64,000 nt of DNA from Escherichia coli (GTDB lineage Bacteria > Pseudomonadota > Gammaproteobacteria > Enterobacterales > Enterobacteriaceae): the NCBI RefSeq assembly GCF_003991155.1, contig NZ_CP031293.1, one strand, 5' to 3'. This document shows, piece by piece, positions 34,365-52,727 of the stretch. A program made the position numbers and the translations under genes. Below the pieces are notes generated by a model. It was not told the origin of the DNA. It saw only the letters and a list, made by a program, of their open reading frames with translations, and made no database searches. Position 1 is the first letter of the stretch. Every line of letters begins with the position of its first letter.

Positions 34365-35867
34365 ATGACGATTTTTGATAATTATGAAGTGTGGTTTGTA
34401 ATTGGCAGCCAGCATCTGTATGGCCCGGAAACCCTGCGTCAGGTGACGCAACATGCGGAACACGTTGTTAATGCACTGAATACAGAAGCGAAGTTGCCCT
34501 GCAAACTGGTGCTGAAACCGCTGGGCACCACGCCGGATGAAATCACCGCTATTTGCCGCGACGCGAATTACGACGATCGTTGCGCTGGTCTGGTGGTGTG
34601 GCTGCACACCTTCTCCCCGGCCAAAATGTGGATCAACGGCCTGACCATGCTCAACAAACCGTTGCTGCAATTCCACACCCAGTTCAACGCGGCGCTGCCG
34701 TGGGACAGCATCGACATGGACTTTATGAACCTGAACCAGACCGCGCATGGCGGTCGCGAGTTCGGCTTCATCGGCGCGCGTATGCGTCAGCAACATGCCG
34801 TCGTTACCGGTCACTGGCAGGATAAACAAGCCCATGAGCGTATCGGCTCCTGGATGCGTCAGGCGGTCTCTAAACAGGATACCCGTCATCTGAAAGTCTG
34901 CCGTTTTGGCGATAACATGCGTGAAGTGGCGGTCACCGATGGCGATAAAGTTGCCGCACAGATCAAGTTCGGTTTCTCCGTCAATACCTGGGCGGTTGGC
35001 GATCTGGTGCAGGTAGTGAACTCCATCAGCGATGGCGATGTTAACGCGCTGGTCGATGAGTACGAAAGCTGCTACACCATGACGCCTGCGACACAAATCC
35101 ACGGCGAAAAACGACAGAACGTGCTGGAAGCGGCGCGTATTGAGCTGGGGATGAAGCGTTTCCTGGAACAAGGTGGCTTCCACGCGTTCACCACCACCTT
35201 TGAAGATTTGCACGGCCTGAAACAGCTTCCTGGTCTGGCCGTACAGCGTCTGATGCAGCAGGGTTACGGCTTTGCGGGCGAAGGCGACTGGAAAACTGCC
35301 GCCCTGCTTCGCATCATGAAGGTGATGTCAACCGGTCTGCAGGGCGGCACCTCCTTTATGGAGGACTACACCTATCACTTCGAGAAAGGCAATGACCTGG
35401 TGCTCGGCTCCCATATGCTGGAAGTCTGCCCGTCGATCGCCGCAGAAGAGAAACCGATCCTCGACGTTCAGCATCTCGGTATTGGCGGTAAAGACGATCC
35501 TGCCCGCCTGATCTTCAACACTCAAACCGGTCCAGCCATTGTCGCCAGCCTGATTGATCTCGGCGATCGTTACCGTCTGCTGGTTAACTGCATCGACACG
35601 GTGAAAACACCGCACTCCCTGCCGAAACTGCCGGTGGCGAATGCGCTGTGGAAAGCGCAACCGGATCTGCCAACTGCTTCCGAAGCGTGGATCCTCGCTG
35701 GTGGCGCGCACCATACCGTTTTCAGCCATGCGCTGAACCTCAACGATATGCGCCAGTTCGCCGAGATGCACGACATTGAAATCACGGTGATTGATAACGA
35801 CACCCGCCTGCCAGCGTTTAAAGACGCGCTGCGCTGGAACGAAGTGTATTACGGGTTTCGTCGCTAA
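34365..35867 (+). CDS. araA: AraA, L-arabinose isomerase
   Basis: 500-aa [23 protein letters not shown]. Confidence 0.95.
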
Positions 35868-35950
35868 GTAGCCGCATCAGGTGTGTAACGCCTGATGCGA
35901 CGCTGACGCGTCTTATCAGGCCTACACGCTGTGATTTTGTAGGCCGGATA
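35868..35950. repeat. REP / BIME element
   Basis: gccgcatcaggtgtgtaacgcctgatgcgacgctgacgcgtcttatcaggcctacacg...gtaggccggataagc; typical REP palindromes. Confidence 0.75.
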
Positions 35951-35959
35951 AGCAAAGCG

Positions 35960-36005
35960 CATCCGGCATTGTTTTCCCCCTCGCCCCTCTGGGGAGAGGG
36001 CCGGG
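35960..36005. repeat. GC-rich palindromic repeat (boxC-like), second copy
   Basis: ccccctcgcccctctggggagagggccggggtgaggggaa; related to 28700..28750. Confidence 0.5.
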
Positions 36006-36035
36006 GTGAGGGGAAACGACCTCTCAGGAGTCAAC

Positions 36036-36731
36036 ATGTTAGAAGATCTCAAACGCCAGGTATTAGAAGCCAATTTGGCGCTGCCAAAACATAACCTGGT
36101 CACGCTCACATGGGGCAACGTCAGCGCCGTTGATCGCGAGCGCGGCGTCTTGGTGATCAAACCTTCCGGCGTCGATTACAACGTCATGACCGCTGACGAT
36201 ATGGTCGTGGTCAGCATCGAAACCGGTGAAGTGGTTGAAGGAACGAAAAAGCCCTCCTCCGACACGCCAACTCACCGGCTGCTCTATCAGGCATTCCCGT
36301 CCATTGGCGGCATTGTGCACACACACTCGCGCCACGCCACCATCTGGGCGCAGGCGGGTCAGTCGATTCCAGCAACCGGTACCACCCACGCCGACTATTT
36401 CTACGGCACCATTCCCTGCACCCGCAAAATGACCGACGCAGAAATCAACGGTGAATATGAGTGGGAAACCGGTAACGTCATCGTAGAAACCTTCGAAAAA
36501 CAGGGTATCGATGCGGCGCAAATGCCCGGCGTCCTGGTCCATTCTCACGGCCCATTTGCATGGGGCAAAAATGCCGAAGATGCAGTGCATAACGCCATCG
36601 TGCTGGAAGAGGTCGCTTATATGGGGATATTCTGCCGTCAGTTAGCGCCGCAGTTACCGGATATGCAGCAAACGCTGCTGGATAAACACTATCTGCGTAA
36701 GCATGGTGCGAAGGCATATTACGGGCAGTAA
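36036..36731 (+). CDS. araD: AraD, L-ribulose-5-phosphate 4-epimerase
   Basis: Start at [19 protein letters not shown] preceded by AGGAG. Confidence 0.9.
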
Positions 36732-42919: not shown

Positions 42920-44196
<1,277 letters not shown>

Positions 44197-44225
44197 CAAC
44201 AGCGCCTGACGGCGCTGTGTCTGGC

Positions 44226-44288
<63 letters not shown>

Positions 44289-44294
44289 TGAAAC

Positions 44295-52127: not shown

Positions 52128-52727
52128 ATGGCTGACTATTTTGAAATACGTGCTGATTACAATCAGCACACCATCACGGTTTATCAGGCTTACAATGATG
52201 CAATCGCTGACGTCGCCGTACGTGACGGGCGATTTGGCGCACCTTTTTCATTCAACCGCATGACCTGGATTAAACCCTCTTTTATGTGGATGATGGAGCG
52301 TAGCAACTGGGGACTGAAAAAAGATCAACAACGCATTCTCGCAATCCGAATCAAACGCACCTTCTTTGATACATTGCTGGAACAAGCGGTGCTAACCACG
52401 CCGGAAGCCCATGTCTATCCACATGCAGGAGTTTGGGAAACGTTATTTGCGCAAGCAAATGTATATGTTCAGTGGGACCCAGAACGCAGCATAAATGGCA
52501 AAAAACTGGAGCACCGATCATTACAGCTTGGTATTTCTCGTAACTTGATCAGTCAATTTAACGAAGACGCCATTGTTGCCATTGATGATCTGACGCCGCT
52601 GGTGCGAAAGTGTCATAACCTTTTGATAAACGGTAAAACAACACAGGCGAAATCCTTCCTGCCGCCAGAAAAAATTTATCCTGTTAGTGCAACTGCAAGA
52701 AAGGCTTGGGGAATGAAAAATTCCTGA
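52128..52727 (+). CDS. Hypothetical protein, 199 aa (uncharacterized; not in the K-12 apaH-folA interval)
   Basis: ORF with AGGGAGGA RBS directly after apaH; conserved-looking block RMTWIKPSFMWMMERSNWG that I recall, uncertainly, as a DUF-type family. Confidence 0.6.
   Translation: MADYFEIRADYNQHTITVYQAYNDAIADVAVRDGRFGAPFSFNRMTWIKPSFMWMMERSNWGLKKDQQRILAIRIKRTFFDTLLEQAVLTTPEAHVYPHAGVWETLFAQANVYVQWDPERSINGKKLEHRSLQLGISRNLISQFNEDAIVAIDDLTPLVRKCHNLLINGKTTQAKSFLPPEKIYPVSATARKAWGMKNS

What the first reader, a model, noticed from the sequence alone, without database searches (positions are those of the whole stretch)
35911..35930. Unoccupied copy of the IS621 target in the REP downstream of araA
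The REP after araA contains tcttatcaggcCTacacgctg. This matches the reconstructed empty site at the IS621 insertion (tcttatcaggcCTacacgttg) at 20 of 21 positions, including the CT core, about 7 kb away. It is a ready-made second landing site and a natural control for target specificity.
Basis: seen in the sequence. Interest (0 to 1): 0.45.

Follow-up and report, generated by a model that had tools for sequence, protein, structure and literature searches.

The report
Vacant IS621 landing site after araA
The short sequence after araA is a real, empty, fully matching landing site for the RNA-guided mobile element IS621 that sits 7 kb away, but E. coli carries over a hundred such sites and this kind is already well documented, so it is ordinary.

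Summary
TCTTATCAGGCCTACACGCTG lies at 35911-35931 (+), in the 3' arm and tail of a REP hairpin between araA and araD. It matches the reconstructed empty site of the IS621 copy at 43004-44282 at 20 of 21 positions.

The single difference (35929, C vs T) is target position 15. That is outside the 11 nt read by the bridge RNA and outside the 14-nt extended range.

The element's own guides (LTG ATCGGGCCU, RTG GUAG) fit both sites equally.

The "landing site" reading is supported by natural occupancy. Of 5,426 complete E. coli genomes, 27 carry IS621 in the araA-araD REP cluster. One of them, strain MEW, has it at exactly the predicted nucleotide, in the same intergenic architecture.

It is not special. 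Published work found 129 ATCAGGCCTAC sites hit in BL21(DE3). The same 21-mer occurs within an entry (seq580) of the published catalogue of natural IS621 targets. IS621-bearing genomes hold a median of 5 copies, so most perfect targets are empty.

It is therefore a poor unique "control". Verdict: correct, already known biology, low interest.

The parts
35911..35931 (+). The 21-mer of the finding, TCTTATCAGGCCTACACGCTG
   Evidence: unique in the window and 20/21 identical to the reconstructed empty IS621 site. The only difference is at 35929 (C here, T at 44288).
35915..35925 (+). 11-nt IS621 target ATCAGGCCTAC. Left target 35915-35921, CT core 35922-35923, right target 35924-35925. Predicted top-strand cleavage and insertion point lies between 35923 and 35924.
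   Evidence: the only exact copy in the window; this is the natural target sequence; strain MEW carries IS621 inserted exactly here.
35890..35921 (+). REP hairpin (GCCTGATGCG...CTTATCAGGC; 'Z2'-type by my recollection of the Bachellier nomenclature) whose 3' arm holds the left target
   Evidence: inverted repeat I2, 14-nt arms, 86% complementary. (matches the 3' hairpin of Rfam naRNA4 at 37 bits, below the gathering score). (one of only two GCCTGATGCG REP heads in the window).
35938..35967 (-). Partner REP in inverted, tail-to-tail orientation (ATCCGGCCTAC at 35939-35949, head GCCGGATGCG at 35958-35967). It differs from the IS621 target at position 4.
   Evidence: (I1: 15-nt arms, 93% complementary, 11-nt spacer).
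35974..36016 (.). GC-rich imperfect palindrome between the REP pair and the araD start (ATG at 36036). It is a neighbour only, not part of the target.
   Evidence: I3, I5. Present in MEW and a K-12-like strain; replaced by extra REP pairs in BL21(DE3), AZ155 and 2011C-4315.
43004..44282 (+). Resident IS621 copy (1279 bp) inserted in the REP between rluA and djlA
   Evidence: ends TGTATTATCC... and ...ACAGTATCT. (annotated as IS621 family in RefSeq genomes, with 100% identical copies). (this exact junction is present in 171 of 5,426 genomes).
43196..44176 (+). IS621 recombinase gene (326 aa)
   Evidence: Pfam DEDD_Tnp_IS110 1.5e-24, Transposase_20 1.1e-25. (D11, E60, D102, D105 and S241 present; 2 aa differences from WP_000399648.1). 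(these residues are the catalytic ones).
43018..43195 (+). Bridge RNA region. LTG AUCGGGCCU at 43067-43075. RTG GUAG at 43095-43098 (extended UGCGUAG at 43092-43098). Handshake guide AU at 43099-43100.
   Evidence: Read directly. Numbering checked against U74, A81/U82 and G53 in PMC11208158. Near-identical bRNA variant is listed in the published supplementary data next to this very target. Fold z-score -3.86.
42995..43003 (+). Left half of the occupied target (ATCAGGC + CT)
44283..44290 (+). Right half of the occupied target (ACACGTTG)
   Evidence: Empty-site reconstruction validated.
42923..43002 (+). REP pair directly upstream of IS621 (passes the Rfam naRNA4 model)
   Evidence: 77.3 bits, gathering score 59.5.

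Best explanation
The sequence is the 3' arm and tail of an ordinary REP element in the araA-araD spacer. It belongs to the REP subtype whose tail reads ATCAGGC-CT-AC. IS621 has evolved to recognise this tail, so every such REP is a potential integration site. How it would work: the bridge RNA's target-binding loop pairs its left guide (AUCGGGCCU) with the bottom strand of 35915-35923, with one G-T wobble at position 4, as at nearly all natural sites. Its right guide (GUAG) pairs with the top strand of 35922-35925. The recombinase tetramer would then cut after the CT core and exchange strands with the circular IS junction ...ACAGTAT-CT-TGTAT.... That would place the 1.28-kb element between 35923 and 35924, in the same orientation as araA and araD. 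In this genome the site is simply empty. IS621 copy number (about 5-9 per genome) is far below the number of perfect targets (over 100), so an empty perfect target is the normal state. What is shown: sequence identity at all guide-read positions; an intact recombinase and intact guides in the resident copy; and natural insertion at this exact position in another strain. What is inferred: that this copy, in this cell, would use the site at a rate like any other perfect site.
For: - The site is an exact 11-mer and 14-mer match to the occupied site.
- The differing base is at position 15. Only 11 positions (14 at most) are read by the guides, per PMC11208160 and PMC11208158.
- LTG, RTG and HSG of the resident copy are unchanged from the published wild-type bridge RNA.
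- The catalytic residues D11, E60, D102, D105 and S241 are intact.
- Copies with 1279/1279 identity occur at at least 6 distinct loci in other genomes. All have ATC[A/G]GGC-CT-AC with variable positions 12 onward, which points to a recently active element with this specificity.
- Strain MEW (NZ_CM192120.1) has IS621 at ...GTCTTATCAGGCCT|TGTATT...CAGTATCT|ACACGCTGTGATTTTG..., i.e. the predicted junctions with identical local flanks. Both junction queries confirm it.
- 26 further genomes have IS621 in a neighbouring ATCAGGCCTAC REP of expanded versions of the same spacer.
- The published catalogue of natural targets contains the same 21-mer (seq580), the occupied sites of those strains (seq604, seq605), and this window's occupied site (seq783).
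- The published genome-wide assay found 129 ATCAGGCCTAC sites used in BL21(DE3), 144 of 173 sites being in REPs. BL21(DE3) has three perfect targets in this same spacer.
- IS621-like elements are in 2,244 of 5,426 genomes, with a median of 5 places.
Against: - No insertion is seen at this site among genomes whose spacer is near-identical to the window. About 280 records are at least 99% identical and unoccupied. MEW, the one exact case, is a different lineage: its ara flanks are 3.1% divergent and its IS differs at 26 of 1280 positions.
- Competence of this particular site in this particular strain is therefore inferred, not observed.
- The local context differs from the occupied site. Here there is a tail-to-tail REP partner 11 nt downstream and the site is inside the araBAD operon. 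At rluA-djlA the site is an outward-facing tail. An effect of context on efficiency cannot be excluded with these tools.
- I could not confirm from the truncated Supplementary Table 3 that the BL21(DE3) ara sites were among the 129 hit.
Confidence: 0.9

Rival explanations
1. The site matches on paper but is effectively refractory in this genome. One route is counter-selection: an insertion between araA and araD would be polar on araD, and loss of AraD with AraB/AraA intact is classically arabinose-toxic. Other routes are the tail-to-tail REP pair, REP-binding proteins or transcription hindering synapsis, or some target immunity exerted by the copy 7 kb away.
For: - The site is vacant in about 280 near-identical genomes, even though the IS has several 100% identical copies elsewhere.
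- Occupancy of the ara spacer (27/5,426, 0.5%) is lower than that of rluA-djlA (171/5,426, 3.2%).
- In the two ara-occupied genomes checked, the rluA-djlA site is not occupied by IS621.
Against: - 27 genomes in at least four spacer architectures tolerate IS621 between araA and araD, with araD annotated intact.
- Tail-to-tail REP contexts are in the catalogue of natural targets (seq580, 604, 605).
- A rough expected per-site occupancy is 13,172 places / (5,426 genomes x about 130 sites), or about 2%. So 0.5% and 3.2% are both unremarkable given clonal inheritance.
- Co-occupancy expected under independence is under 1 genome, so its absence says nothing.
- No immunity mechanism is known for IS110-family elements (my knowledge).
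Confidence: 0.07
2. The resemblance is only shared REP ancestry and has no relation to IS621. On this view the element's presence in a similar REP 7 kb away is coincidental and the site should be read solely as a host REP/BIME (mRNA stabiliser, protein binding site).
For: - The identical stretch is mostly REP consensus (GCGTCTTATCAGGCCTAC).
- The extra ACG after it also follows other natural targets (17 catalogue entries).
- REPs have host roles independent of IS elements (established knowledge).
Against: - This is compatible with, rather than opposed to, the main explanation. IS621 specifically reads this REP tail.
- IS621 has actually inserted at this nucleotide in strain MEW.
- Neighbouring REPs with position-4 variants (ATCTGG in AZ155, 2011C-4315 and the K-12-like strain; ATCCGG in the partner REP) are the ones left unused.
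Confidence: 0.02
3. The empty site is a scar-free footprint of an IS621 copy that once sat there and excised precisely.
For: IS110-family excision regenerates the target exactly (PMC11208158 discussion of the transposition cycle), so such a history leaves no trace and cannot be excluded.
Against: There is no positive evidence. All close relatives are also empty, and the simplest history is that the site was never occupied.
Confidence: 0.01

Closest known systems
Natural and experimental IS621 target sites in E. coli REPs (Choi et al. 2003, cited in PMC11208158; Durrant et al. 2024, PMC11208160; Hiraizumi et al. 2024, PMC11208158)
   Same: Same 11-nt target ATCAGGCCTAC, same CT core, and same position at the 3' foot of a REP hairpin. 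The same 21-mer is listed among published natural targets (seq580), and the window's occupied site is listed as seq783.
   Different: Nothing of substance. The exact 50-nt context of the window's ara site (GACGCTGACGCG...CTGTGATTTTG) is not itself in the catalogue. Its occupied form is seen only in the recent MEW assembly.
Expanded araA-araD REP clusters of other E. coli strains (BL21(DE3), Ecol_AZ155, 2011C-4315)
   Same: Same intergenic spacer and same REP subtype. IS621 is found there in 26 genomes.
   Different: Those strains have 2-3 tandem REP pairs and lack the GC-rich palindrome. In the two occupied genomes examined (AZ155, 2011C-4315), IS621 sits in the second REP because the first reads ATCTGGCCTAC there. 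BL21(DE3) is unoccupied and all three of its REPs read ATCAGGCCTAC. The window has a single REP pair whose target is perfect.
Other REP- or BIME-targeting mobile elements: ISPpu9/ISPpu10 (IS110 family, P. putida; PMC12288879 and bioRxiv 10.64898/2026.03.19.712850), and IS1397 and the RAYT/TnpA-REP transposases (my knowledge)
   Same: They use the host's dispersed REP palindromes as many safe, intergenic landing or recognition sites. The conserved REP tail CTAC (GTAG on the other strand) is part of what is recognised.
   Different: The recognition chemistry or the REP family differs. IS1397 and RAYT recognise REPs through protein, not through an RNA guide. ISPpu elements read Pseudomonas REPs.

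Membership tests
IS621 bridge-RNA target site | 11-nt match to the natural target ATCAGGCCTAC (or the guide-encoded ATCGGGCCTAC) | tested here: met
   Exact match at 35915-35925, the only one in the window. Definition from PMC11208160.
IS621 bridge-RNA target site | CT core dinucleotide at positions 8-9 | tested here: met
   CT at 35922-35923.
IS621 bridge-RNA target site | Complementarity to the LTG, RTG and handshake guide of the resident element's own bridge RNA | tested here: met
   LTG AUCGGGCCU (43067-43075) matches the target top strand except for G versus A at position 4, giving the tolerated G-T pair. RTG GUAG (43095-43098) is the complement of CTAC. Positions 6-7 (GC), read by the DBL handshake guide, are identical at both sites. 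All 14 positions are identical to the occupied site.
IS621 bridge-RNA target site | Located in a REP element | tested here: met
   Inverted-repeat arms 35890-35903 and 35908-35921. Alignment to the REP hairpin of Rfam naRNA4.
IS621 bridge-RNA target site | Actually used for integration | tested here: met
   Used in another strain: MEW has IS621 at exactly this position. It is not occupied in this window or in about 280 near-identical genomes. Recombination in this strain cannot be tested with these tools.
REP/BIME (repetitive extragenic palindrome cluster) | Imperfect palindrome of about 35 nt with a conserved CTAC/GTAG tail, in an intergenic position, paired with an inverted partner | tested here: met
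   It lies between the araA stop (35867) and the araD start (36036).
REP/BIME (repetitive extragenic palindrome cluster) | Match to a curated REP-derived RNA model (Rfam naRNA4, RF02564) | tested here: inconclusive
   37.4 bits against a gathering score of 59.5 at 35849-35922. The REP pair next to IS621 passes with 77.3 bits.
IS621 element (the resident copy that defines the comparison) | IS110-family recombinase with the DEDD RuvC-like domain and the Tnp domain serine, plus IS621 ends and bridge RNA | tested here: met
   Pfam PF01548 and PF02371. D11, E60, D102, D105 and S241 present. 1279 bp with ends TGTAT... and ...ACAGTATCT. Annotated IS621 family in RefSeq.

The most novel reading that the evidence does not exclude
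The least ordinary reading not excluded is this. The ara spacer target stays empty in this lineage, despite an active multi-copy IS621 only 7 kb away, because insertion there is selected against (polarity on araD making arabinose toxic) or is blocked by some cis-acting target immunity. The 27 occupied genomes would then carry compensating features. If a second copy did land there in the same orientation, the two copies would bracket araD-polB-rapA-rluA and could drive deletion of that 7-kb segment.
Probability: 0.05. Interest if true: 0.4.

Novelty: already known. Interest (0 to 1): 0.13.

Why it matters
It matters little beyond annotation. It shows that a sequence-only reader can correctly predict an RNA-guided insertion site, and that the prediction is borne out in another strain at single-nucleotide precision. 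IS621's preference for this REP tail has been known since 2003, and the guide mechanism and genome-wide site usage were published in 2024. The site could serve as one of many internal positive-control targets when following IS621 movement in this strain. An insertion there would split the araBAD operon, which could be of practical interest for arabinose phenotypes.

Tried and rejected
- I looked for the BL21(DE3) ara spacer coordinates (69414/69415, 69499/69500, 69584/69585) in Durrant et al.'s supplementary tables, to see whether those sites were among the 129 hit. The stored copy of Table 3 is truncated and nothing was found.
- I tried to read Choi et al. 2003 (PMC166490). It is not held, so the REP-targeting history is cited second-hand from PMC11208160 and PMC11208158.
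- Rfam at gathering threshold gives nothing at the ara REP. At a relaxed threshold there is only a sub-threshold naRNA4 hit plus obvious noise (Pab91, mir-3059, Antizyme_FSE). I rejected the idea that the site is a distinct RNA gene.
- The promoter and terminator scan of 35800-36100 found nothing.
- I considered a 'hotspot' reading of the ara spacer and rejected it. Occupancy of 0.5% is below a rough genome-wide mean of about 2% per perfect site.
- I considered testing target immunity through co-occupancy of the two sites. It is untestable, because under independence fewer than one genome would be expected to have both.
- I considered that the extra 3-nt identity (ACG) beyond the 11-mer signals a special relation between the two sites. 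I rejected this: the same ACG follows the target in 17 catalogue entries, and positions 12-14 vary freely among identical IS copies.
- A whole-genome count of perfect targets in the source strain was not possible, because fetches are limited to 50 kb. I relied on the published BL21(DE3) figure and on local densities: 2 per 64 kb here, counting the occupied site, and 5 per 20 kb in BL21(DE3).

Full report
**1. The observation**

The window is an E. coli chromosomal segment with the gene order araC, araB, araA, araD, polB, rapA, rluA, [IS621], djlA, lptD, surA. This follows from the ORF layout and RefSeq annotations of matching genomes.

- The quoted string TCTTATCAGGCCTACACGCTG occurs once, at 35911-35931 on the + strand. 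The finding's end coordinate is one base short.
- It begins 44 nt after the araA stop codon (35867).
- IS621 occupies 43004-44282 (1279 bp). Its left end is TGTATTATCC... and its right end is ...CCATAACAGTATCT. A CT lies immediately to its left (43002-43003) and a second CT is its last two bases.
- Deleting the element gives TCTTATCAGGCCTACACGTTG, which is 20/21 identical to the ara site. The two CT cores are 7,080 bp apart.
- The reconstruction is not hypothetical. 300 bp spanning the reconstructed empty site is 100% identical to the unoccupied rluA-djlA spacer of several sequenced strains, e.g. SMS-3-5.

**2. What the ara site is**

- The 21-mer is the 3' arm and tail of a REP hairpin with arms 35890-35903 and 35908-35921.
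- This hairpin aligns to the 3' hairpin of the REP-derived Rfam model naRNA4, below threshold at 37 bits.
- Eleven nucleotides downstream sits an inverted partner REP, tail to tail, reading ATCCGGCCTAC on the minus strand.
- A GC-rich palindrome (35974-36016) follows, then the araD start at 36036.
- The window holds only two REPs with the head GCCTGATGCG. One is this vacant one and the other is occupied by IS621.
- The 20/21 identity therefore comes from membership of one REP subtype, plus a 3-nt extension (ACG). That extension also follows the target in 17 entries of the published natural-target catalogue.

**3. The resident IS621 and its guides**

- The 326-aa ORF (43196-44176) has the two IS110-family Pfam domains.
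- It carries all five residues shown to be catalytic: D11, E60, D102, D105 and S241.
- Taking bridge-RNA nucleotide 1 as 43018 reproduces the published positions G53, U74 and A81/U82.
- On that numbering the left target guide is AUCGGGCCU (43067-43075), the right target guide is GUAG (43095-43098, extendable to UGCGUAG from 43092), and the handshake guide is AU (43099-43100).
- This copy's bridge RNA differs from the published wild type only outside the guides.
- A near-identical variant appears in Durrant et al.'s supplementary data, paired with exactly this window's rluA-djlA target.
- The region folds well above shuffled controls (z = -3.86).

**4.

According to PMC11208160 the target is 11 nt: seven left-target positions, the CT core, and two right-target positions. 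The guide can optionally extend to 14 nt.

- The ara site and the occupied site are identical over all 14 positions.
- The one difference (35929, C vs T) is position 15.
- Empirically, IS copies identical to the window's at all 1279 bases sit at at least six other loci in other genomes. Every one has ATC[A/G]GGC-CT-AC, but positions 12-14 read ACA, ATA, ACG, ACT, GTG and GCT.
- The published catalogue of natural targets contains an entry (seq580) with the same 21-mer as the ara site.

The differing position is therefore not critical, and the refutation fails.

**5.

I built chimeric queries joining the ara flank to the IS621 left end, and the IS621 right end to the ara flank. I searched 5,426 complete E. 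coli genomes with both.

- 27 genomes have IS621 between araA and araD.
- In strain MEW (NZ_CM192120.1) both junctions are single, full-length matches.
- The MEW sequence reads ...GCGTCTTATCAGGCCT|TGTATT...CAGTATCT|ACACGCTGTGATTTTGTAGGCCGG.... This is the predicted insertion point, orientation and flanks, in the same one-REP-pair architecture as the window.
- MEW is an independent lineage. Its ara flanks are 3.1% divergent and its IS differs at 26 of 1280 positions.
- The other 26 genomes have two or three tandem REP pairs in the spacer. In the two examined, IS621 sits in the second ATCAGGCCTAC REP, and the first REP, which reads ATCTGGCCTAC, is unused.
- Their occupied sites are the published catalogue entries seq604 and seq605.
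- A K-12-like strain has the window's architecture but reads ATCTGGCCTAC.
- BL21(DE3), the host of the published insertion assay, has three perfect targets in this spacer.

**6. Why the site is not remarkable**

- Durrant et al. mapped 173 insertion sites of wild-type IS621 in BL21(DE3). 144 were in REPs and 129 carried ATCAGGCCTAC.
- IS621-like sequences are present in 2,244 of 5,426 genomes, with a median of 5 places per genome. The likely source strain has 8.
- Most perfect targets in any genome are therefore empty.
- A rough mean occupancy per perfect site is 13,172 places / (5,426 x about 130), or about 2%. This brackets both the ara spacer (0.5%) and rluA-djlA (3.2%). It is only an order-of-magnitude figure, because places include partial copies and genomes are not independent.
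- Among about 280 records whose spacer is at least 99% identical to the window's, none is occupied. That is what low copy number predicts.
- The site is a valid positive-control target, but one of over a hundred equivalent ones.

**7. Mechanism, and what is shown versus inferred**

Shown:
- The site is identical to the occupied site at all guide-read positions.
- The guides and the catalytic residues of the resident copy are intact.
- Identical IS copies sit at several loci, implying recent activity.
- IS621 has integrated naturally at this nucleotide in another strain.

Inferred from the published mechanism:
- The target-binding loop would pair with both strands of 35915-35925.
- S241 would cut the top strand after T35923.
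- Strands would be exchanged with the circular RE-LE junction ACAGTAT-CT-TGTAT.
- The product would be a 1.28-kb insertion co-oriented with the ara operon.

Not tested: the efficiency at this site in this strain, and any effect of the tail-to-tail REP partner or of operon transcription.

**8. Rivals**

- A "refractory site" reading (selection against polarity on araD, structural hindrance, or immunity) is not excluded. It is weakened by 27 tolerated natural insertions with intact araD annotations and by tail-to-tail contexts in the natural catalogue.
- "REP only, unrelated to IS621" is contradicted as an exclusive reading by the MEW insertion.
- A precise-excision footprint cannot be tested from sequence.

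**9. Verdict**

The finding is an instance of well-described biology: REP targeting by IS621, and bridge-RNA guide rules. Novelty is "already known" and interest is low.

Noticed in passing
window 42923-43002: The REP pair immediately upstream of IS621 passes the Rfam naRNA4 (nucleoid-associated ncRNA 4) model at 77 bits. IS621 begins one to two bases after the model's 3' end, so the insertion sits at the very foot of a naRNA4-like unit.
   Followed up: partly
window 35974-36016: A GC-rich imperfect palindrome (TTCCCCCTCGCCCC...GGGGTGAGGGGAAA) lies between the REP pair and araD. It resembles a 'Box C' repeat (from memory, untested). It is present in MEW and a K-12-like strain but replaced by extra REP pairs in BL21(DE3), AZ155 and 2011C-4315.
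   Followed up: partly
araA-araD spacer: window 35868-36035; L002, L004, L005: The number of REP pairs in this spacer varies from one to three between strains. Position 4 of the first REP's IS621 target varies too: A in the window, MEW and BL21(DE3); T in K-12-like, AZ155 and 2011C-4315.
   Followed up: partly
window 44262-44267 and 43006-43011: Joining the right end to the left end of IS621 brings TTGCAG and TATTAT together with a 17-nt spacer. This is a sigma-70-like promoter that exists only in the excised circular form.
   Followed up: no
L007, L008, L010, L014, L015 (other genomes): IS copies identical to the window's at all 1279 bases sit at at least six different chromosomal loci, including dedD-cvpA in strain 2016C-3878. 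This implies recent transposition. One of the targets is ATCGGGCCTAC rather than ATCAGGCCTAC.
   Followed up: yes
L003 19100-20300 (strain MEW, rluA-djlA spacer): MEW carries a different insert in the rluA-djlA spacer: a UDP pyrophosphate phosphatase gene plus a frameshifted transposase fragment. This is where the window has IS621.
   Followed up: no
window 35939-35949 (minus strand): The partner REP reads ATCCGGCCTAC. The published covariation input shows related IS110-family elements whose flanking target reads ATCCGGCCTAC (file 11). The same REP pair may therefore offer a landing site to a different IS621 relative.
   Followed up: no
window 52183-52193: ATCAGGCTTAC is one mismatch from the IS621 target, but the mismatch breaks the CT core and no REP motif overlaps it. 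It is probably not a usable site.
   Followed up: no
window 44195-44222: There is a hairpin (CAGCGCC TGAC GGCGCTG) just after the recombinase stop codon, inside the IS right end, with no U-tract. It could bear on read-through into downstream genes when IS621 sits inside an operon such as araBAD.
   Followed up: no
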